Shown here: piece after piece, positions 12,487 to 27,913 of the stretch
Layout: every line of letters begins with the position of its first letter
How positions within the stretch are numbered: the first letter of the stretch is position 1
Assembly (NCBI RefSeq): GCF_000023965.1
Contig: NC_013202.1
Span: 900,001-932,000 of the forward strand
Length of the DNA stretch: 32,000 nt
Direction of reading: 5' to 3'
DNA from: Halomicrobium mukohataei DSM 12286
GTDB lineage: Archaea; Halobacteriota; Halobacteria; Halobacteriales; Haloarculaceae
Made by a program: the position numbers and the translations under genes
Notes under the pieces: model-generated
The model's database searches: none
What the model was told of the DNA's origin: nothing
The model's input: the letters and a program-made list of their open reading frames with translations, nothing else

Positions 12487-12590
12487 GGGCACGTAGCTCA
12501 GTCCGGATAGAGCGTCGGACTTCTAACGCCGTCACGGCCGTGACGGTGGAAGCGATCCGACGGTCGTGGGTTCGAATCCCACCGTGCCCG
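12487..12590 (+). tRNA. tRNA-Arg (anticodon UCU) with a 29-nt intron at the canonical 37/38 position
   Basis: Folded by hand. Acceptor GGGCACG/CGTGCCC plus discriminator G. D arm GCTC-AGTCCGGATA-GAGC. Anticodon stem TCGGA/TCCGA with loop CTTCTA|A (anticodon tct at 12522-12524). T arm GTGGG-TTCGAAT-CCCAC. The intron (12526-12554) contains the hairpin ccgtcac-ggcc-gtgacgg. Confidence 0.85.
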
Positions 12591-12607
12591 TCCCGAAACC
12601 GTCGGTT
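12577..12607. repeat. attL: 31-nt direct repeat overlapping the 3' end of tRNA-Arg
   Basis: tcccaccgtgcccgtcccgaaacCgtcggtt recurs at 26066-26096 with one mismatch (C/T at 12600/26089). The first 14 nt are the tRNA 3' end. Confidence 0.85.
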
Positions 12608-12762
12608 CCGTACTTTTCCCGGATAACACGGTTATCAAGCCGTTCGTCATCCTCTCTCGACGGTTCTCGAATTCGATTTGAGAGCCAGAATTTGGTGCCC
12701 AACACAGGTGCGAACGCACCCCTCCGCCGTCTGGCATACTCTGTTACCGGGAGGTGGTCGGC

Positions 12763-13380: not shown

Positions 13381-15189
13381 TTGTCTACGGACGAACCCAC
13401 CACCGGCGGCTCTCGGCATACCAACTTGAACAACTCTGTAAACGACTCTGACGGGGGTAACTCACCGAAAATCGGTTCGGAGTTACCCACTCCGTACGAG
13501 CGCGTTTCAGAGTTCCACGAGGAATACTCCGACCGTGCTCACCTCCGCCTGTCGACAACCCATGGCGAACGACTCCGAGAGGAGTACACCCGAGAGTTCA
13601 CGGAGAGCTACGAATCATCCGCCCCACGAGAGTGGGACGACCCAGTGAAAGGCCAGGAGGTCGTCCGCCGGGAAGCCGTCACTTGGGGAACCGCCGTACT
13701 CCGAACGCTCGAAGACTACGCCGATACCCGCCGGACGACAGTGAATCTCGAGAAAGGTCGTCCGTCAGATCCGGAGTATCAGGAGTGGTCCGTACAGGCT
13801 GAAACGCGCTGGTTCGCCAGCTACCAGAAGCGCTACTACGCCCAGATGAAAGGCTGGCTCCGGGAACTTTGCGGTGGCAAACGACCATCCGGAGAGTACA
13901 CCGAACCCGACTTCGAGAATCCCCATGTGGCCCTCGTCACGCTATCGGCCTCGAGCGTCCCGAACGGTGATCGCGTCGGTCCGGTCGAACACGAACGGGT
14001 CCGTCGCGAGAGCTGGCAGGACGTGTATCACACTCTCCGGAACACCATGCGCTCGAAAGGCTACGAACTCGGTGACGACTGGCAGTACGACCGCCGTAGC
14101 GAGCCACACGCGGGCGAACGCGGCGGTGGCCTGAACCACTGCTATGGCCACGACCACATCGTGATCGTCGTCGACGGCGAGGTGGACGCGACAGACTTCC
14201 AGCCTGTCGTCGAAAAACACGTCGAGACGTGCGACTGGGCCGGTGAGACTGCACACGCCCTCGAGAAAGCCATCGAGGTGAAGGCCGCTGACGAGGTGGA
14301 ACACCTGGCTGAGTACTGTGCCAGCTACGCGGCCATCAAGCCCGTCGATCTCCTCGAGCGGCCGATAGAGTACGTCGCGTGGGCCAGCGCAGTCAACGCG
14401 GCCAACGTAAAGACGGTCTCACGCTCTGACGCTGCCAAACACGCCGCCACTGCTGACGCCTGCCGACAACGCGCTGAGTCCCCACAGTGCGACCAGGACC
14501 GCGATCACGCTGAAGAGATTATCCCCTCGACACGTCGTGGATATGAACTTGAGTGTGCTGAATGCGGCAGTCCCCACGGGATCGACCAGGACCAGACACT
14601 AACAGCTGCCCGATCTCCGAACGACGGCCCAGCGATCGCCGACGGCGGCCTCGTCGATCGCGTCGAACAGCTCAAGGAGCGGTGGCCGTCCGCTCGAGCA
14701 GGTGCGACAGTCGGTGAACGACCACAACGTCGACGCTGGCGACTGGCGATCGAGGAATACCTCAAACAGAACCCCGAAGCAGACCCACCCGAGATACTGG
14801 GCCAGCTGCAACTGCCACCGGACGCTCGCGAGGTCCTAGCCGAGATCGAGGCCGGGATCGATCGAAGTGTACCCGTCGGCTTCGAGCGGCCGCCCGAGTG
14901 GCAAGTCAAGTCGATCACCGTCGGTGAAGAGGAGTATCCCGCTTCCTCCGGTAACGGCGTGACGATGGTCGAGACGAAGTTGCCCGTCGAACGAGTGTAC
15001 GAAGAGTCGGTTCTATCGGAGCGCGACGACGTGACTCGCTGGCGTTGTGAGAAGACAAACGTCGCGATCGGCGGCCCTAATGCTGGTCGAAAGATGGCCG
15101 GCTATCTTGTGAAACAGGGGATCAAGCATCCATGGGTTATAGAAAGTTTAGTAGTTATTGAACACGTTCGAGGGTTAAATTCGATCTAG
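13381..15189 (+). CDS. Large provirus ORF; candidate HUH-type rolling-circle replication initiator (start codon uncertain, TTG in track)
   Basis: 602-aa open frame with acidic haloarchaeal composition. Candidate RCR motifs appear in the canonical order: I 'HVALVTLSASS', II 'HCYGHDHIVIVVD' (HxH followed by hydrophobics), III 'EYCASYAAIKP' (Tyr...K). A CxxC pair 'ECAECGSPHG' lies in the central region. A TCTCGGC motif sits at 13411, inside the 5' end. No in-frame ATG occurs until far downstream. Confidence 0.55.
   Translation: MSTDEPTTGGSRHTNLNNSVNDSDGGNSPKIGSELPTPYERVSEFHEEYSDRAHLRLSTTHGERLREEYTREFTESYESSAPREWDDPVKGQEVVRREAVTWGTAVLRTLEDYADTRRTTVNLEKGRPSDPEYQEWSVQAETRWFASYQKRYYAQMKGWLRELCGGKRPSGEYTEPDFENPHVALVTLSASSVPNGDRVGPVEHERVRRESWQDVYHTLRNTMRSKGYELGDDWQYDRRSEPHAGERGGGLNHCYGHDHIVIVVDGEVDATDFQPVVEKHVETCDWAGETAHALEKAIEVKAADEVEHLAEYCASYAAIKPVDLLERPIEYVAWASAVNAANVKTVSRSDAAKHAATADACRQRAESPQCDQDRDHAEEIIPSTRRGYELECAECGSPHGIDQDQTLTAARSPNDGPAIADGGLVDRVEQLKERWPSARAGATVGERPQRRRWRLAIEEYLKQNPEADPPEILGQLQLPPDAREVLAEIEAGIDRSVPVGFERPPEWQVKSITVGEEEYPASSGNGVTMVETKLPVERVYEESVLSERDDVTRWRCEKTNVAIGGPNAGRKMAGYLVKQGIKHPWVIESLVVIEHVRGLNSI
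13411..13513. repeat. 103-nt segment repeated beyond attR (copy 1), beginning with TCTCGGC and containing a 13-bp interrupted hairpin
   Basis: Hand alignment to 26106-26208 gives 97/103 identical. Hairpin in copy 1: ggtaactc-accga-aaa-tcggt-tcg-gagttacc (13456-13487). Confidence 0.85.
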
Positions 15190-22400: not shown

Positions 22401-23246
22401 ATGGGGATGAAGAATCAACTATCCGAATGGTATGATCCATCAGCAAATCCAGTTTACCAGACTATTACTAAAATCCGGTTTCCTCGGCAACAGGGACACG
22501 CTACTGGGTTTTTTTATAATAGTGATGATAAAACATATCTAGTGACTAACAGACACGTGGTTTCACCTGACGATGATGAGGTACAAGATCCAGATTCTAT
22601 TCGAATATTTACACGTCCTGTTGACTCCTTAGGAGATCGAGAATATCACGATATCTCACTAAATGAAGGGGAAGGAAAGAGTTGGTTCACGCATCCAATT
22701 CACGATGCAGACATAGCTGTACTGCCTCTAGATTTTGAATTAGATTGTGTCAATCATAGGATTGGAATTGATGAAGAGCGTCCCGTTGAAACCGGAAGTC
22801 TGGCCTACAACGAGGATTCGATTCTTTCAGAAAAAGATAGGGTTCTCCCAGGTAATAGAGCACAAGTAGTCGGTTATCCAGGAGACTATGTAGATCAACA
22901 ATATGGGTTCCCTGTGACAAGAAACGCCGTCGTTTCTACTCAATACGGTTTTCCGTTCGATGGGAATCCTATTTTTTTAACTGATGCCCGGATGCATCCT
23001 GGAACAAGTGGAAGCCCTGTGGTGGCTGGCCCGGAAACTCTCATTATACATGGTGGTCTTGATCTTTGGGGACCAGCGTATAAATTGCTCGGAGTGCATT
23101 CTGCTACCTTACAACAATCTACAGTCGATAAAGATGATGAGAGGATGTTAGAATTAAATACCACCTGGTATGCAGAACTGATAGAAGAGATTCTATTCTT
23201 AAAAGATACAGATATTGAAGAACTAGATGATCAAGAAAATAATTGA
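22401..23246 (+). CDS. Cytoplasmic trypsin/chymotrypsin-fold serine protease (S1-like, Trypsin_2-type)
   Basis: Catalytic triad in canonical order and context: 'YLVTNRHVV' (His52), 'HDADIAVLPL' (Asp104), 'HPGTSGSPVV' (Ser203). No signal peptide and no PDZ domain. AT-rich codon usage. A TATA-like 'gatagatataaatatg' ends ~20 nt before the ATG, suggesting a leaderless mRNA. Confidence 0.8.
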   Translation: MGMKNQLSEWYDPSANPVYQTITKIRFPRQQGHATGFFYNSDDKTYLVTNRHVVSPDDDEVQDPDSIRIFTRPVDSLGDREYHDISLNEGEGKSWFTHPIHDADIAVLPLDFELDCVNHRIGIDEERPVETGSLAYNEDSILSEKDRVLPGNRAQVVGYPGDYVDQQYGFPVTRNAVVSTQYGFPFDGNPIFLTDARMHPGTSGSPVVAGPETLIIHGGLDLWGPAYKLLGVHSATLQQSTVDKDDERMLELNTTWYAELIEEILFLKDTDIEELDDQENN

Positions 23247-24858: not shown

Positions 24859-24958
24859 TTGCTAACGTAGTGGATAGCCAATTGCTTAATTCCTGACTTG
24901 CCCAGTTGCTAACTTGCTTAGTTGCCAAAAGCTTATTACCAAGTAGCTAAATTAGCAA
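24859..24958. promoter_or_regulatory. Array of TTGCTAA/TTGCTTA heptamers between the RHH gene and the integrase gene (putative operator or arm-type sites)
   Basis: Read directly: ttgctaa 24859, ttgctta 24882, ttgctaa 24906, ttgctta 24914, ttgccaa 24922, tagctaa 24944, and inverted ttagcaa 24952. 'agttgctaa' (24904-24912) and 'ttagcaact' (24952-24960) form an inverted pair. Confidence 0.5.
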
Positions 24959-24963
24959 CTCAT

Positions 24964-26019
24964 ATGCCCGACCCGGATCTCGAACCCATCTCGCCGGTCG
25001 AAGCCGTTGAGATGTACCACGATGCGATGGTCGACGAACTGGCGGAGTCGACCAGGAAGAGCAACAAACACCGGCTTCGTGCCTTCATCCAGTTCTGCGA
25101 CGAAGAGGAGATCGAGAACCTGAACGATCTCACCGGGCGCGATCTCTACAAATATCGGATCTGGCGGCGAGAGGGCAACGGCGACGGTCGAGAGCCTATC
25201 AAGAAGGTCACCCTGAAAGGACAACTCGCCACGCTTCGGAGTTTCCTCAAGTTCGCTGGCGAGATTGATTCCGTGAAGCCAGATCTCTACGAACAGTTGT
25301 CGCTCCCGGCGATGAAAGGCGGTGAAGACGTATCGGAATCGACCCTCGACCCCGAACGAGCGCTCGATATTCTGGAGTATCTCGAGAAGTCCCAGCCCGG
25401 AAGCCGCGACCACATCATCATCGCCCTGCTCTGGGAAACGGGTGGCCGAACGGGCGCAATCCGTGGCCTCGACCTACAGGATCTCGATCTCGATGGCGAC
25501 CATCCCCGATTCTCCGGCCCGGCAGTTCACTTCGTCCACCGACCGGAAACCGGTACTCCACTCAAGAACCAGAAAAGCGGCACTCGCTGGAACCGGATCA
25601 GTGAGAAGACGGCTGCGTTCATCGAGGACTACATCGAGTTCCACCGTCCCGACGTGACGGACGATCACGGCCGGGACCCTCTGCTGACCAGCGAGTACGG
25701 TCGTGTCGCCGGGAACACCTACCGGAGAACACTCTATCGGGTCACTCGCCCGTGCTGGCGCGGCGAGGAATGTCCCCACGATCGAGATCTCGACGAGTGC
25801 GAGGCAACGCATCTCGATCACGCGAGCAAGTGTCCGTCAGCTCGGTCACCCCACGACGTTCGGAGTGGCCGGGTCACCTACTACCGTCGAGAAGACGTCC
25901 CCCGGAAGATCGTCCAGGAGCGACTGAACGCGAGCGAGGACATTCTCGACCGACACTACGACCGTCGATCGAACCGCGAACAGGCCGAACAGCGCAGCGA
26001 CTTCCTCCCGGACGTGTGA
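24964..26019 (+). CDS. int: Tyrosine recombinase / phage-type integrase
   Basis: N-terminal SAM-like core-binding domain. Catalytic residues sit in typical contexts: 'GGRTGAIRGLDL' (Arg), 'SPHDVRSGRVTY' (HxxR), 'ILDRHYDRR' (Tyr). Start placed at ATG 24964 (MPDPDLEPISPVEAV); the track's 24922 is a TTG. The gene ends 46 nt before attR. Confidence 0.85.
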   Translation: MPDPDLEPISPVEAVEMYHDAMVDELAESTRKSNKHRLRAFIQFCDEEEIENLNDLTGRDLYKYRIWRREGNGDGREPIKKVTLKGQLATLRSFLKFAGEIDSVKPDLYEQLSLPAMKGGEDVSESTLDPERALDILEYLEKSQPGSRDHIIIALLWETGGRTGAIRGLDLQDLDLDGDHPRFSGPAVHFVHRPETGTPLKNQKSGTRWNRISEKTAAFIEDYIEFHRPDVTDDHGRDPLLTSEYGRVAGNTYRRTLYRVTRPCWRGEECPHDRDLDECEATHLDHASKCPSARSPHDVRSGRVTYYRREDVPRKIVQERLNASEDILDRHYDRRSNREQAEQRSDFLPDV

Positions 26020-26065: not shown

Positions 26066-26096
26066 TCCCACCGTGCCCGTCCCGAAACTGTCGGTT
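26066..26096. repeat. attR: second copy of the 31-nt att repeat
   Basis: tcccaccgtgcccgtcccgaaacTgtcggtt gives 30/31 identity to 12577-12607. Confidence 0.85.
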
Positions 26097-26105
26097 GCTT
26101 ACTCT

Positions 26106-26210
26106 TCTCGGCATACCAACTCGAACAACTCTGTAAACGACTCTGACGGGGATAACCCACCGAAAATCGGTTCGGAGTTACCGACTCGCTACGAGCGCGT
26201 TTCAGAGTGA
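26106..26210 (+). pseudogene. Truncated ghost of the Rep-like ORF 5' region (copy 2 of the 103-nt repeat)
   Basis: Translates as SRHTNSNNSVNDSDGDNPPKIGSELPTRYERVSE*, versus SRHTNLNNSVNDSDGGNSPKIGSELPTPYERVSEF... in the intact ORF. Homology starts exactly at TCTCGGC, 10 nt after attR, and ends at a TGA. Confidence 0.7.
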
Positions 26211-26422
26211 TTGCTTTCGTGAGGATGCTCAGTAGCTTTTTATTGCCGTACTTGAGAAAGTGTGCGAGTCGCTCTCTGTATTCAGCACAACTGTTGGCTC
26301 CTGTTATCGTTTGAAGAATCCAATAAGGCCGCTACTACTGAATTTTGATCCTGGAATCCAAGCTAGCTTGTTTTAATCCAAAAAGCAGCGCTAGAATTTG
26401 AGATGCCGCTTCGACCGCGATG

Positions 26423-26608
26423 TCACGAGACGTAGTTCAAATACGACACCACGAGTGTCGGCACTCCCACAGCGACTGCTGTCGAGATGGCGACTCTGAT
26501 GTTGCTTGGGACCGTCGTGAACCTGTTCATGACGTATAGGAGTGCAAGTGCTATCAATACGAAGATCAAATACACTCCGACCGTTCGGCCGAGGGACGCG
26601 CTATTCAT
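26423..26608 (-). CDS. Small two-TM membrane protein (61 aa) downstream of the halocin-like gene
   Basis: MNSASLGRTVGVYLIFVLIALALLYVMNRF...AISTAVAVGVPTLVVSYLNY has two hydrophobic helices. Same strand as the upstream gene, starting 19 nt after its stop. An oligo-T run on the minus strand (26380-26384) follows. Confidence 0.5.
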   Translation of the reverse strand: MNSASLGRTVGVYLIFVLIALALLYVMNRFTTVPSNIRVAISTAVAVGVPTLVVSYLNYVS

Positions 26609-26626
26609 AGGACGTAATTTATATTT

Positions 26627-27556
26627 TCAACATATGTTTATACGCCGGTCGGAACATATCTTTTTGTCTACTCCTCTGGTGGTGCATCCATAGACTGCGA
26701 TCAGCGTACAGACCACAGCAATGAACGCCCCACAGGCGAATCCACCGATGCCTGCAGAACCGACGCCGATCAGACCGCACAAGAACCAGACCGGCGCCCC
26801 ACACGTAGCGAAGCAGATCGCGTTAACAGCGGTCTTGCAGAGATCACAGGTGTAGCCTTGAGTTGAGACGCCACTGTCGGACGAGTCAACTCCAGCATTG
26901 ATTCTGTCGAAATCCTCGTTCGTGACCGTGGCGGTTGTAACTTCTTCGCCGGTCGCGTCAACTAACTTGATCTCCTTAGAGACGGTAGCGGTTTTTCCTT
27001 CGACTTCGTCGAACTGGATCGGATACTCTTCGGGGGTGGTCATTCCCCTATCGACTACTTCGGCACCGGCGACGATGACTTCCTCGGTTTCTGCGTCGAT
27101 ACCGATTGTCGCATAGGCCTCATCACCCGACGTACCCTTGATTGGCGAATACGCGAAGTGCTTGGTTGTTTTCCGACCCGCTGCATCTTCCCCGCTGACT
27201 TCGAGGACTGTCGCATGTGCAACGCTAAATCGAACTTTTCCATCCAACTCGTCAGTTACATGCTTACGCAGGCTTCGAAACTCGTCGGTCCGTTTGAGTC
27301 TACCGAGGACTTTCGCGGATTTCGGTGGTTCGAGCGTCGTCTTTTCAAATCCGGCCGGATTTGCCTGAGCGGCTCCGGTACCGGTGAGCATCCCCAAACT
27401 AGCAGCGCTACAGGCGATACCGCTCAGAACCTTACGACGATTTATACTTCCAGAACTAGAATTCTGGCCGGTGGACTCGGACTTCGCCGGGCCGTCTCTC
27501 CTCTTTCGGTCGTTCATCGTTTCGGGACCAAAACTGTCCTGGTTGGAGTTTCTCAT
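26627..27556 (-). CDS. Halocin C8-like precursor (Tat signal + N-terminal domain + C-terminal 10-Cys hydrophobic peptide)
   Basis: 'INRRKVLSGIACSAASLGMLTGTGAAQA' is a twin-arginine signal. The last 75 aa, 'YTCDLCKTAVNAICFATCGAPVWFLCGLIGVGSAGIGGFACGAFIAVVCTLIAVYGCTTRGVDKKICSDRRINIC', carry 10 Cys in a Gly/Ala-rich hydrophobic peptide. This matches my recollection of HalC8 architecture. The start is ambiguous: ATGs at 27577, 27556 and 27517. 27556 is chosen because a TATA-like tract at ~27576-27593 would give a leaderless mRNA. Confidence 0.7.
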   Translation of the reverse strand: MRNSNQDSFGPETMNDRKRRDGPAKSESTGQNSSSGSINRRKVLSGIACSAASLGMLTGTGAAQANPAGFEKTTLEPPKSAKVLGRLKRTDEFRSLRKHVTDELDGKVRFSVAHATVLEVSGEDAAGRKTTKHFAYSPIKGTSGDEAYATIGIDAETEEVIVAGAEVVDRGMTTPEEYPIQFDEVEGKTATVSKEIKLVDATGEEVTTATVTNEDFDRINAGVDSSDSGVSTQGYTCDLCKTAVNAICFATCGAPVWFLCGLIGVGSAGIGGFACGAFIAVVCTLIAVYGCTTRGVDKKICSDRRINIC

Positions 27557-27575
27557 CCGCAATATTACTTTTAGC

Positions 27576-27593
27576 ATATATATAAAAATTTTT
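27576..27593 (-). promoter_or_regulatory. TATA-like tract upstream of the halocin-like gene
   Basis: The minus strand reads 'aaaaatttttatatatatgc', ~25-30 nt upstream of the ATG at 27556. Confidence 0.35.
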
Positions 27594-27643
27594 GTCCTTG
27601 AGCAACGGTAGTGTTCTGATAAGAGAGAGTAACGTCATTCAGG

Positions 27644-27823
27644 CACGGAAAGCCCTGGCCCGCTATAGTAACAATTGAAATGATTTACACAGTGATCGCA
27701 CTGCCGTCGTGCGGTCGGGTGTGCATTGATTTTCAATGGCTACTATAGCCCGATCTGTGGCGGATATTCTCTCTCCGCTCGAATAGTGCCGCCACAAATC
27801 GAGCGACGCGAGGGCTTTCGGTG
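27644..27823. other. ~180-nt nested inverted-repeat element (candidate structured RNA or MITE-like remnant)
   Basis: Three complementary pairs were read by hand. Outer: cacggaaagccctgg (27644-27658) with cgagggctttcggtg (27809-27823), 13/15. Inner B: gctatagtaacaattgaaa (27662-27680) with tttcaatggctactatagc (27731-27749), 17/19. Inner C: gatctgtggcgg (27752-27763) with ccgccacaaatc (27789-27800), 11/12. Confidence 0.4.
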
Positions 27824-27913
27824 TCTGTAACTCAGCAAGCGCGGTCGCTTATCTGAACACTACCCTCGGTGCAGGGAGAACCGTTTTTACCGAGGTCGAT
27901 AAGACTGGAGTAG

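What the first reader, a model, noticed from the sequence alone, without database searches (positions are those of the whole stretch)
26423..27593. Halocin C8-like precursor gene plus small membrane protein on an AT-rich islet just outside the provirus
The 310-316-aa minus-strand ORF has a twin-arginine signal and a ~170-aa soluble region. Its C-terminal 75 residues (DNA ~26630-26854) carry exactly 10 cysteines embedded in Gly/Ala-rich hydrophobic sequence. This is the architecture I recall for halocin C8. There, a ~76-aa, 10-Cys peptide is cleaved from the C-terminus of a Tat-exported precursor whose N-terminal part serves as the immunity protein. A 61-aa two-TM protein follows 19 nt downstream and could be an additional immunity or export factor. 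The islet sits between attR plus the Rep ghost and the host K+ channel gene, which suggests the antimicrobial locus arrived with, or replaced, an older mobile element.
Basis: partly seen in the sequence, partly recalled or inferred. Interest (0 to 1): 0.7.

Follow-up and report, generated by a model that had tools for sequence, protein, structure and literature searches.

The report
Halocin C8-type toxin gene pair
This is a correctly spotted but already database-annotated gene for a halocin C8-type antimicrobial peptide precursor in Halomicrobium mukohataei; the one new point is that a tiny membrane-protein gene behind it recurs in related loci.

Summary
The minus-strand ORF has a twin-arginine signal, a ~170-aa acidic domain and a hydrophobic C-terminal domain with exactly 10 Cys in its last 75 residues. 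A 61-aa two-TM ORF follows 18 nt downstream. Both lie on a 51% GC islet between attR plus a Rep-gene fragment and a TrkA-domain K+ transporter gene.

The C-domain matches NCBIfam TIGR04449 (halocin_C8_dom) at 58.8 bits against a cut-off of 24. The Cys framework matches the family. The N-domain is homologous to the HalI-type region (hhalign 97.4%). The whole protein is collinear with a ProC8-like 283-aa protein at 25% identity.

The window is H. mukohataei DSM 12286, CP001688 900,001-932,000. The genes are Hmuk_0967 and Hmuk_0966. RefSeq already names WP_164731977.1 a "halocin C8-like domain-containing protein", so the main finding is not new.

What I did not find described: the small ORF (Pfam DUF7987) evolves under purifying selection. 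A small membrane-protein gene follows the halocin-like gene in 9 of 10 loci with readable downstream DNA, and it is DUF7987 in 4 of them. The locus lacks halR/halU/halT-type neighbours. Activity, processing and immunity are untested.

The parts
27577..27588 (-). TATA-like run TTTTTATATATA (core TTTATA at 27581-27586). It is centred about 27-28 nt upstream of the ATG at 27556, which predicts a leaderless transcript.
   Evidence: Sequence read directly. The promoter role is inferred from the usual position of haloarchaeal TATA boxes.
26627..27556 (-). Halocin C8-like precursor gene (Hmuk_0967; 309 aa from the second ATG, stop included). The mechanical ORF extends to 27577 (316 aa).
   Evidence: It is 100% identical to WP_164731977.1 'halocin C8-like domain-containing protein [Halomicrobium]'. 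dN/dS is 0.26 against its 64-67% identical metagenomic relative.
27359..27556 (-). Predicted Tat signal peptide (residues 1-66 of the 309-aa form). RR is at residues 40-41 (27434-27439). The predicted signal-peptidase site is after A-Q-A.
   Evidence: Motif SINRRKVL plus a hydrophobic region plus AQA. RR is conserved in the family. The weak PDB profile hits to this segment include several Tat-exported precursors, such as the NapA signal peptide and the hydrogenase small subunit. The cleavage site is inferred.
26858..27358 (-). Acidic soluble N-domain (residues 67-233, pI about 4.7), homologous to the HalI immunity region of ProC8. It includes a helix-loop-helix at its N-terminus.
   Evidence: hhalign gives 97.4% probability, E = 1.4e-11, against the N-domains of the HalC8 clade. 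Pfam PF22862 scores 19.6 bits, below its cut-off of 27. In the AF2 model, block-mean pLDDT is 96-98 for residues ~71-170 and 83-94 up to ~210, with helices 79-88 and 91-103 followed by a beta sheet.
26630..26857 (-). Predicted mature halocin domain (residues 234-309, 76 aa, 10 Cys, GRAVY +0.99, pI 8.4, 7.77 kDa).
   Evidence: TIGR04449 scores 58.8 bits against a cut-off of 24. The AF2 model is helical with pLDDT about 76-91. The exact N-terminus is inferred.
26423..26608 (-). 61-aa two-TM protein gene (Hmuk_0966), Pfam DUF7987, 18 nt downstream of the halocin stop codon. Probably co-transcribed.
   Evidence: A precomputed PF25949 hit is listed. A homologue sits in the same position in L003, L009 and L012. 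dN/dS is 0.24.
26380..26384 (-). T5 run 39-43 nt after the small ORF's stop codon, preceded by AGCGCT. Candidate archaeal terminator of the two-gene unit.
   Evidence: Sequence read directly. The function is inferred.
26066..26111 (+). attR of the pleolipovirus-like provirus, a direct repeat of the tRNA 3' end and attL at 12577-12622.
   Evidence: The provirus limits are published in PMC3384331.
26106..26208 (+). 'Rep ghost': a 103-nt, 94% identical copy of the 5' end of the provirus rep-like gene (13411-13513). It breaks off at 26208, where the low-GC islet begins.
   Evidence: The rep-like gene carries DUF1424.

Best explanation
Hmuk_0967 and Hmuk_0966 form a two-gene archaeocin cassette of the halocin C8 family.

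Proposed sequence of events:
1. A leaderless, probably bicistronic mRNA encodes a 309-aa pre-pro-protein.
2. The Tat pathway exports it (RR at residues 40-41), and the signal peptide is removed after AQA.
3. An unidentified protease cuts near ..GVSTQ|GYTC. This releases a roughly 76-aa, hydrophobic, mildly cationic peptide with 10 Cys, presumably forming five disulfides. The peptide attacks the envelope of competing haloarchaea.
4. The acidic N-terminal HalI-like domain stays with the producer and neutralises the peptide, giving self-immunity.
5. The 61-aa DUF7987 two-TM protein is an accessory membrane partner. It most likely adds to immunity, or anchors or handles the hydrophobic peptide at the producer's membrane.

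The cassette is foreign DNA. It lies in the remains of an older integrative element next to a pleolipovirus-type provirus.

Shown here: the gene structure, membership of both domains in the family, conservation and selection of both genes, and the genomic setting. Inferred: export route, cleavage sites, disulfides, killing, immunity, and the role of DUF7987.
For: - C-domain: TIGR04449 scores 58.8 bits against a cut-off of 24, E = 7.7e-16.
- Cys framework: C-x2-C-x7-C-x3-C-x7-C... is shared with 92 of 134 family cluster representatives, and the first five spacings equal those of the ProC8-like P0028.
- Whole protein: collinear BLASTP alignment to P0028 over the full length, 25% identity, E = 2e-11.
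- N-domain: hhalign 97.4% against HalC8-clade N-domains. The match covers the helix-loop-helix segment, which AF2 predicts as helices 79-88 and 91-103.
- Tat motif is conserved in the family.
- Purifying selection acts on the N part (dN/dS 0.28), the C-domain (0.21) and the small gene (0.24).
- A small membrane ORF lies directly downstream (-7 to +98 nt) in 9 of 10 loci with readable downstream DNA. It is DUF7987 in the window, L003, L009 and L012.
- The biology of HalC8, HalI and Tat export is as summarised in bioRxiv 10.64898/2026.07.27.741052.
- Foreign origin: GC3 is 0.58 against about 0.9 for host genes, with attR and the Rep ghost adjacent.
Against: - There are no experimental data for this gene. 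No paper mentions Hmuk_0967, Hmuk_0966 or DUF7987.
- Identity to the characterised HalC8 type is only 25%. The tail Cys spacing differs (7/9/7 against 8/8/5).
- Pfam's HalI-type model PF22862 is below its gathering score (19.6 against 27).
- The cleavage site is not conserved with HalC8 (..TPS|DIEITGC in P0028). The xxQ motif occurs in only 35 of 92 representatives.
- No maturation protease, regulator or ABC transporter lies next to the gene.
- A DUF7987-like protein also occurs on a Halorussus plasmid without an adjacent halocin gene, so the link is not obligatory.
- Five of the nine downstream membrane ORFs show no detectable homology to DUF7987.
Confidence: 0.75

Rival explanations
1. The cassette is, or was, cargo of a mobile element. 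It would act mainly for that element, for example as a killer/immunity (addiction-like) module that favours carriers of the island, rather than as a host weapon acquired independently.
For: - It lies directly after attR and a 103-nt fragment of a second rep-like gene, which indicates a decayed second integrative element at the same tRNA site.
- Its GC3 of 0.58 resembles provirus genes (0.68-0.75) more than host genes (about 0.9).
- Relatives sit next to an IS240-type transposase gene (L007).
- The DUF7987-like gene on the Halorussus plasmid lies near an integrase.
Against: - There is no third att copy to close an older element.
- tblastn of the halocin protein found nothing in 50,697 phage records, and a scan of IMG/VR contigs found nothing.
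- The published provirus ends at the integrase gene.
- Other relatives lie in ordinary chromosomal contexts.
Confidence: 0.2
2. The protein is secreted or membrane-inserted but is not an antimicrobial. The Cys-rich hydrophobic C-domain would act as a membrane-embedded or signalling module, together with the small two-TM protein. Family membership would then not imply killing.
For: - Only one member of this diverse family (133 clusters at 50% identity) has been characterised.
- The C-domain is as hydrophobic as a membrane domain (GRAVY +0.99) and is predicted helical.
- No processing protease or exporter is encoded nearby.
Against: - The domain architecture is the same as ProC8 across both domains.
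- The extracellular 10-Cys framework is strictly conserved, which is typical of disulfide-stabilised secreted peptides.
- A conserved in-cis HalI-like domain makes most sense as an antidote.
Confidence: 0.12
3. The locus is retained only for immunity (a 'cheater' locus). The HalI-like domain and/or DUF7987 would protect against halocins made by neighbours, and the peptide itself would be inactive.
For: - Orphan immunity genes are common in bacteriocin systems (general knowledge).
- A DUF7987-like gene occurs without a halocin gene on a Halorussus plasmid.
Against: - The C-domain is under at least as strong purifying selection (dN/dS 0.21) as the N part (0.28).
- All 10 Cys are intact.
Confidence: 0.05
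4. It is a chance ORF or a decaying pseudogene on junk DNA of a degraded island.
For: Low-GC DNA beside a truncated rep fragment. Three different start codons appear in public annotations, giving 254, 309 and 316 aa.
Against: - HMM E = 7.7e-16.
- The frame is intact and the protein is identical in three Halomicrobium genomes.
- dN/dS is 0.26 against a 64-67% identical relative.
- The AF2 model is confident.
Confidence: 0.01

Closest known systems
Halocin C8 precursor ProC8 (HalI + HalC8) of Natrinema sp. AS7092, UniProt P83716. It is represented here by the 283-aa cluster representative P0028.
   Same: - Tat-type RR signal.
- HalI-type N-domain (hhalign 97.4%).
- C-terminal domain with 10 Cys, with identical C-x2-C-x7-C-x3-C-x7-C spacing.
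- Collinear over the whole length.
- The predicted mature peptide has the same length, 76 aa.
- One gene encodes both the toxin and its putative antidote.
   Different: - Only 25% identity.
- It belongs to a rare subclade marked by C-G-x-P-x-W-x-[LI]-C (9 of 134 representatives; 10 if the close relative P0002, which has L instead of W, is added).
- The tail Cys spacing is 7/9/7 instead of 8/8/5.
- The sequence around the presumed cleavage site differs.
- The flanks here are a provirus integrase/attR on one side and a K+ transporter gene on the other, with no regulator or ABC transporter gene. So there are no halR, halU or halT1-3 neighbours like those described for Natrinema.
- Instead, a DUF7987 two-TM gene follows 18 nt downstream.
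- It sits beside a provirus, on a low-GC islet.
NCBIfam NF040679 'halocin C8 precursor-like protein' (halocin_of_epi, the Staphylococcus-type equivalog)
   Same: Weak similarity over the C-terminal part (27.9 bits).
   Different: Far below the equivalog cut-off of 200 bits. This protein is not a member.
Bacterial class II bacteriocin operons, with a structural gene followed by a small membrane immunity gene
   Same: Layout only: a secreted hydrophobic peptide gene is followed within a few nucleotides by a gene for a tiny integral-membrane protein. The layout recurs in related loci.
   Different: - No sequence relationship.
- The precursor here is large and Tat-exported.
- It already carries an in-cis immunity-type domain.
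- The peptide is released from the C-terminus rather than by removal of an N-terminal leader.
- The comparison rests on general knowledge, not on a test.
Pfam PF25949 (DUF7987)
   Same: The 61-aa protein and the small proteins after P0007 and P0008 carry precomputed PF25949 hits. They align with one another at BLASTP E = 1e-5 to 1e-11 in a small set.
   Different: The family has no assigned function. No paper in the searched library mentions it. The model is absent from the local Pfam copy, so I could not re-score it.

Membership tests
Halocin C8 family (ProC8-type precursors) | C-terminal halocin C8 domain that passes the curated model (NCBIfam TIGR04449, cut-off 24 bits) | tested here: met
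   58.8 bits, E = 7.7e-16, residues 244-316 of the 316-aa form, covering the full model 1-69.
Halocin C8 family (ProC8-type precursors) | Ten-cysteine framework C-x2-C-x7-C-x3-C-x7-C-x(11-14)-C-x7-C-x(7-8)-C-x(7-9)-C-x(5-7)-C in the last ~75 residues | tested here: met
   Spacing is 2,7,3,7,14,7,7,9,7. 92 of 134 representatives share the C-x2-C-x7-C-x3-C core, and 8 Cys columns are invariant in a 43-sequence alignment.
Halocin C8 family (ProC8-type precursors) | N-terminal HalI-type domain: Pfam PF22862 (Hac8_like_N) at its gathering score | tested here: not met
   19.6 bits, E = 0.0015, against a cut-off of 27.
Halocin C8 family (ProC8-type precursors) | N-terminal domain homologous to the HalI region, by a more sensitive profile-profile comparison | tested here: met
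   hhalign of 7 N-domains of this subclade against 4 HalC8-clade N-domains gives probability 97.4%, E = 1.4e-11, over 94 columns that include the helix-loop-helix segment. Relatives P0003 and P0007 carry weak PF22862 hits, and P0028 and P0054 carry unmarked hits.
Halocin C8 family (ProC8-type precursors) | Twin-arginine (Tat) signal peptide | tested here: met
   SINRRKVL plus a hydrophobic region plus AQA. RR is at least 90% conserved in alignment A2. The motif is present in 72 of 92 representatives. No dedicated Tat predictor was available.
Halocin C8 family (ProC8-type precursors) | Proteolytic release of a ~76-aa C-terminal peptide | not testable with these tools
   Only a prediction can be made: a cut after Q233 would give 76 aa and 7.77 kDa. 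The protease for HalC8 itself is unknown (PMC12893001; preprint).
Halocin C8 family (ProC8-type precursors) | Antagonistic activity against other haloarchaea, and HalI-mediated self-immunity | not testable with these tools
   No literature exists on this gene.
Natrinema-type halC8 gene cluster (halU-halR-halC8-halT1-3) | Adjacent HTH regulator and ABC transporter genes | tested here: not met
   The neighbours here are attR and the integrase on one side and a TrkA-domain K+ transporter gene on the other. HVO_A0261_N/FilR1-type regulators flank other clades (L014-L018).
Pfam DUF7987 (PF25949), for the 61-aa protein | Match to the family model | tested here: inconclusive
   A precomputed PF25949 hit is listed for this exact product. 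The local Pfam copy lacks the model, so it could not be re-scored. Homology to two other PF25949-labelled proteins is supported by BLASTP at E = 2e-5 to 5e-5 and by a three-sequence alignment.

The most novel reading that the evidence does not exclude
A distinct, rare subclade of halocin C8-type precursors (motif C-G-x-P-x-W-x-L-C) travels as a self-contained two-gene cassette with a dedicated tiny two-TM partner, DUF7987. DUF7987 would be a previously unrecognised archaeocin accessory protein. It could be a second, membrane-level immunity factor, or a chaperone or anchor for the hydrophobic peptide. More generally, most halocin C8-like genes outside the Natrinema clade would be paired with a small membrane protein. 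Orphan DUF7987 copies, such as the one on the Halorussus plasmid, would then be stand-alone immunity genes.
Probability: 0.35. Interest if true: 0.45.

Novelty: already known. Interest (0 to 1): 0.3.

Why it matters
Halocin C8 is one of very few archaeal antimicrobial peptides with a known gene, and only one member of its family has been studied. This locus adds no new kind of system, and public databases already label it.

It is still a compact and experimentally convenient case. It has two genes, no regulator or transporter genes, a cultivated type strain, and a clear mass prediction for the peptide.

If the small DUF7987 protein proves to be an immunity or handling factor, two things would follow. 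It would give a function to a protein family that has none. It would also show that self-protection in this family is not carried by the precursor's N-terminal domain alone.

The position beside a provirus remnant also bears on how such weapons move between haloarchaea.

Tried and rejected
1. A word-indexed protein search with the 86-aa C-domain alone found no candidates. The same tool with a 43-sequence profile returned only 3 proteins, because of its candidate cap.
2. The search for related loci with the 4-sequence alignment found nothing that tblastn confirmed, in genome contigs, viral contigs or metagenome contigs.
3. A hand-made degenerate DNA pattern for the subclade motif found one genome contig, the same MAG as L007, and no metagenome contig. 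The source genome itself was not hit, so these collections do not hold this locus. The negative results say little about true rarity.
4. tblastn of the precursor and of the 76-aa domain against PLSDB plasmids and INPHARED phages found no match. The low-complexity filter may contribute to this.
5. Foldseek of the AF2 model against the PDB found nothing below E = 0.001. The best hit was p32/gC1qR at probability 0.10. A PDB sequence profile search hit only signal-peptide-like N-termini. No solved relative exists.
6. I considered a lipobox at Cys49 of the signal peptide and rejected it. The -3 residue is Gly, the Cys lies only 8 residues after RR, and it is not conserved in P0002-P0004.
7. I considered the first ATG (316 aa) and the GenBank start at M63 (254 aa). 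M63 would delete the RR motif. The first ATG lies inside the TATA-like run.
8. I tried to read Makarova et al. 2019 (mBio 10:e00715-19, PMC6509191) to see whether small membrane partners were already noted. The paper is not held. My statement that the partner is undescribed therefore rests only on the searchable library.
9. An Rfam scan of the palindromic region upstream found nothing meaningful.
Full report
**What is there**

The minus strand carries an ORF at 26627..27577 (316 aa) and, 18 nt after its stop codon, a 61-aa ORF at 26423..26608.

- The large protein begins with a long polar segment. This is followed by S-I-N-R-R-K-V-L, a hydrophobic stretch and A-Q-A.
- Next comes a ~170-residue acidic region (pI 4.7).
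- The protein ends in a very hydrophobic segment (GRAVY +0.99, pI 8.4).
- Exactly ten cysteines lie in the last 75 residues (26630-26854), spaced 2,7,3,7,14,7,7,9,7.
- The interval 26209-27913 has 51% GC. The neighbouring host genes have 64-68% GC. GC3 of the large gene is 0.58, against 0.85-0.91 for host genes.

The gap is 18 nt, not 19. The first ATG lies inside a TATA-like run (TTTTTATATATA, 27577-27588). The second ATG (27556) lies 27-28 nt downstream of the TTTATA core, as expected for a leaderless haloarchaeal mRNA. I therefore take the 309-aa form as the product. That promoter reading is an inference.

**Where the window comes from**

The 309-aa product is identical to WP_164731977.1, [quoted passage not shown].

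Exact look-ups give these records:
- ACV47096.1 (Hmuk_0967), annotated with a 254-aa start
- QCD65580.1 and QFR20386.1 (316 aa), from strains JP60 and ZPS1
- UniRef100_C7P188, "Halocin C8-like bacteriocin domain-containing protein"
- ACV47095.1 (Hmuk_0966), a "hypothetical protein", for the 61-aa product

Sencilo et al. 2012 (PMC3384331) list [quoted passage not shown] as a pleolipovirus-related provirus. Those numbers equal the window's tRNA start (12487) and integrase end (26019) plus 900,000. The window is therefore CP001688 900,001-932,000. The two genes lie immediately outside the published provirus.

**Family membership**

- The C-terminal domain matches NCBIfam TIGR04449 (halocin_C8_dom) end to end, at 58.8 bits against a cut-off of 24, E = 7.7e-16.
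- A profile search of 1.84 billion cluster representatives found 133 relatives at E <= 0.001. Most are 250-310 aa long.
- 92 of the 134 sequences (the window protein plus those 133 relatives) carry the C-x2-C-x7-C-x3-C core, and 72 of those have an RR motif near the N-terminus.
- One representative, P0028 (283 aa), ends in ..DIEITGCSACKYAAGQVCTIGCSAAGGFICG... From memory, it matches the published ProC8/HalC8 sequence closely. The window protein aligns with it over its whole length at 25% identity, E = 2e-11. The first five Cys spacings are the same.
- Pfam's HalI-type model PF22862 hits the N-domain only below threshold (19.6 against 27 bits).
- A profile-profile comparison restricted to N-domains, with signal and C-domain removed, gives 97.4% probability and E = 1.4e-11 between this subclade and the HalC8 clade. 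The match covers the N-terminal helix-loop-helix segment. AlphaFold2 predicts that segment as helices 79-88 and 91-103.
- The AF2 model has mean pLDDT 78.9. Block means are 96-98 over residues ~71-170 and 83-94 up to ~210 of the N-domain. The C-domain is helical at about 76-91.
- No solved structure resembles the model.

Both halves of the ProC8 architecture are therefore present. According to the literature summarised in bioRxiv 10.64898/2026.07.27.741052, ProC8 is exported by Tat. [quoted passage not shown] The protease is unknown (also PMC12893001).

**Is it a live gene?**

I compared it with its closest relative, P0002, from a JGI metagenome contig (67% identity by BLASTP, 64% over a global alignment).
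- dN/dS is 0.26 overall.
- It is 0.28 for the signal plus N-domain and 0.21 for the C-domain.
- The protein is identical in three Halomicrobium genomes.

A chance ORF or pseudogene is excluded.

**The small ORF**

The gene caller's precomputed Pfam hits assign the 61-aa product to PF25949 (DUF7987). The local Pfam copy lacks that model, so I could not re-score it.

The downstream ORF in each related locus is as follows:

| Locus (upstream halocin-like gene) | ORF directly downstream |
|---|---|
| L003 (P0002) | Clear homologue of the 61-aa protein, starting 4 nt after the stop; 37 of 51 comparable residues identical; dN/dS 0.24 |
| L009 (P0007, 28% identical to the window protein) | 54-aa PF25949 protein, 40 nt downstream |
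| L012 (P0008) | 68-aa PF25949 protein, 86 nt downstream |
| L007 (P0005) | 57 aa, two TM, not detectably homologous to DUF7987 |
| L008 (P0014) | 47 aa, one TM, not detectably homologous |
| L013 (P0009) | 159 aa, overlapping start, not detectably homologous |
| L014/L016 (P0011) | 71 aa, overlapping start, not detectably homologous |
| L018, Halorhabdus-type chromosome (P0012) | 125 aa, four TM, 98 nt downstream, no Pfam family on record; its homology to DUF7987 was not tested |
| L017 (P0054, HalC8 clade) | None; a convergent regulator gene follows |
| L010 (P0028) | Contig ends after 136 nt |

The window, L009 and L012 proteins align with each other, sharing ..LALLLY..FTT.P....AV.VG..P.. 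(BLASTP E = 1e-5 to 1e-11 within the small set).

So a small membrane-protein gene follows the halocin-like gene in 9 of 10 loci with readable downstream DNA. It is DUF7987 in 4 of them.

A DUF7987-like unit also forms the C-terminal half of a 126-aa protein on a Halorussus lipolyticus plasmid. No halocin gene is adjacent there. It lies among CPBP-type intramembrane protease genes and near an integrase.

No paper in the searchable library mentions DUF7987, Hmuk_0966 or Hmuk_0967. The recent census preprint states that none of the genes near halC8 have been characterised. I could not read Makarova et al. 2019, so prior notice of such partners cannot be ruled out.

**Setting**

- The provirus has attL at the 3' end of an intron-containing tRNA (tRNA 12487-12590; att 12577-12622) and attR at 26066-26111.
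- It carries a tyrosine integrase gene (24922..26019) and a DUF1424 'putative rep' gene (13381..15189).
- Directly after attR, positions 26106-26208 repeat the first ~100 nt of that rep gene at 94% identity. About 790 bp that separate att from rep in the intact element are missing here. The copy stops abruptly at 26208, where the low-GC islet starts.
- This is best read as the stump of a second, related integrative element at the same tRNA site.
- Whether the halocin cassette was that element's cargo or replaced it cannot be decided. There is no third att copy. No halocin homologue turned up in phage records or IMG/VR contigs.
- On the other side lies a gene with two TrkA_N and two TrkA_C domains.
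- No halR, halU or halT-like gene is present. In contrast, HVO_A0261_N/FilR1-type regulators sit next to halocin-like genes of other clades.

**How it most likely works**

1. A leaderless, probably bicistronic transcript runs from about 27556 to a T5 run at 26380-26384.
2. The pre-pro-protein is exported by Tat, and the signal is removed after AQA (residue 66 of the 309-aa form).
3. The pro-protein is cut shortly before the first Cys. If the cut falls after ..GVSTQ, the peptide is 76 aa and 7.77 kDa, like HalC8. The xxQ motif upstream of Cys1 occurs in 35 of 92 family members.
4. The disulfide-rich hydrophobic peptide acts on the envelope of competitors.
5. The acidic HalI-like domain neutralises it at the producer's surface.
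6. The DUF7987 hairpin protein is proposed as a membrane-level accessory for immunity or for handling the peptide.

Gene structure, homology, selection and synteny are shown. Everything about export, cleavage, disulfides, killing and immunity is inferred from the family.

**Verdict**

However, the gene is already labelled as halocin C8-like in RefSeq and UniRef, and it belongs to a family surveyed in the literature. The main finding is therefore not new.

It is a divergent member: 25% identity to the ProC8 type, in a subclade of 9-10 of 134 representatives. Its gene context is minimal.

The recurrent small membrane partner, DUF7987 here, is the only element I could not find described. It deserves a proper census and a simple immunity experiment.

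Noticed in passing
window 27663-27749 (within 27596-27875): An 87-bp palindromic element with ~18-nt terminal inverted repeats (CTATAGTAACAATTGAAA ... TTTCAATGGCTACTATAG) lies between the halocin promoter and the K+ transporter gene. The same ~90-110 nt sequence occurs at 155 places on 44 haloarchaeal plasmids (Haloarcula, Natrinema, Natronorubrum, Natrialba, Halomicrobium) at 75-94% identity, mostly in unannotated intergenic DNA. In the window it is nested inside two further inverted-repeat pairs, forming a ~280-nt imperfect palindrome that folds far better than shuffles (z = -7 to -8 on both strands). There is no Rfam match. It may be a MITE-like repeat or a structured RNA. I did not establish target-site duplications, a parent transposon or transcription.
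   Followed up: partly
window 22401-23246 (+), inside the provirus: A 281-aa Trypsin_2-like serine peptidase gene (Pfam E = 1.3e-13) sits on a very AT-rich patch of the provirus (GC 0.41, GC3 0.29), much lower than the rest of the element. It looks like separately acquired cargo. Whether it is secreted, and whether it could process the neighbouring halocin precursor, was not examined.
   Followed up: no
window 27391-27577 (start region of the halocin gene): Public records use three different starts for the same gene: 254 aa (ACV47096.1, starting at M63 of the 316-aa ORF), 309 aa (WP_164731977.1) and 316 aa (QCD65580.1, QFR20386.1). The 254-aa start removes the twin-arginine motif and would hide the secretion signal.
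   Followed up: yes
L022 3767-4147 (Halorussus lipolyticus plasmid NZ_CP119808.1): A 126-aa four-TM protein has a C-terminal half that resembles the 61-aa DUF7987 protein (49% identity over 47 aa, E = 2e-3). It lies with no halocin gene nearby, between two CPBP/CAAX-type intramembrane protease genes, fragments of an ABC ATPase gene and an integrase gene. It may be an orphan or duplicated form of the small partner.
   Followed up: partly
L014 4685-5131, L017 2983-3786, L018 3974-4744: Halocin C8-like genes of other clades are flanked by regulators with HVO_A0261_N plus FilR1_middle/MarR-type domains. These may be the halR type described for Natrinema. No such gene is near the window's halocin gene.
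   Followed up: no
window 12487-12590: The tRNA that provides the att site scores 62 bits in Rfam, but ARAGORN cannot name its anticodon and reports a 90-nt gene. That is consistent with an intron-containing archaeal tRNA.
   Followed up: no
public collections (no window coordinates): The species-representative genome collection returned only one contig for a degenerate pattern that the window itself matches. The JGI metagenome collection returned none, although P0002 comes from a JGI sample. The source locus and its closest relative are evidently not in the scanned copies. Absence in those scans is weak evidence of rarity.
   Followed up: partly
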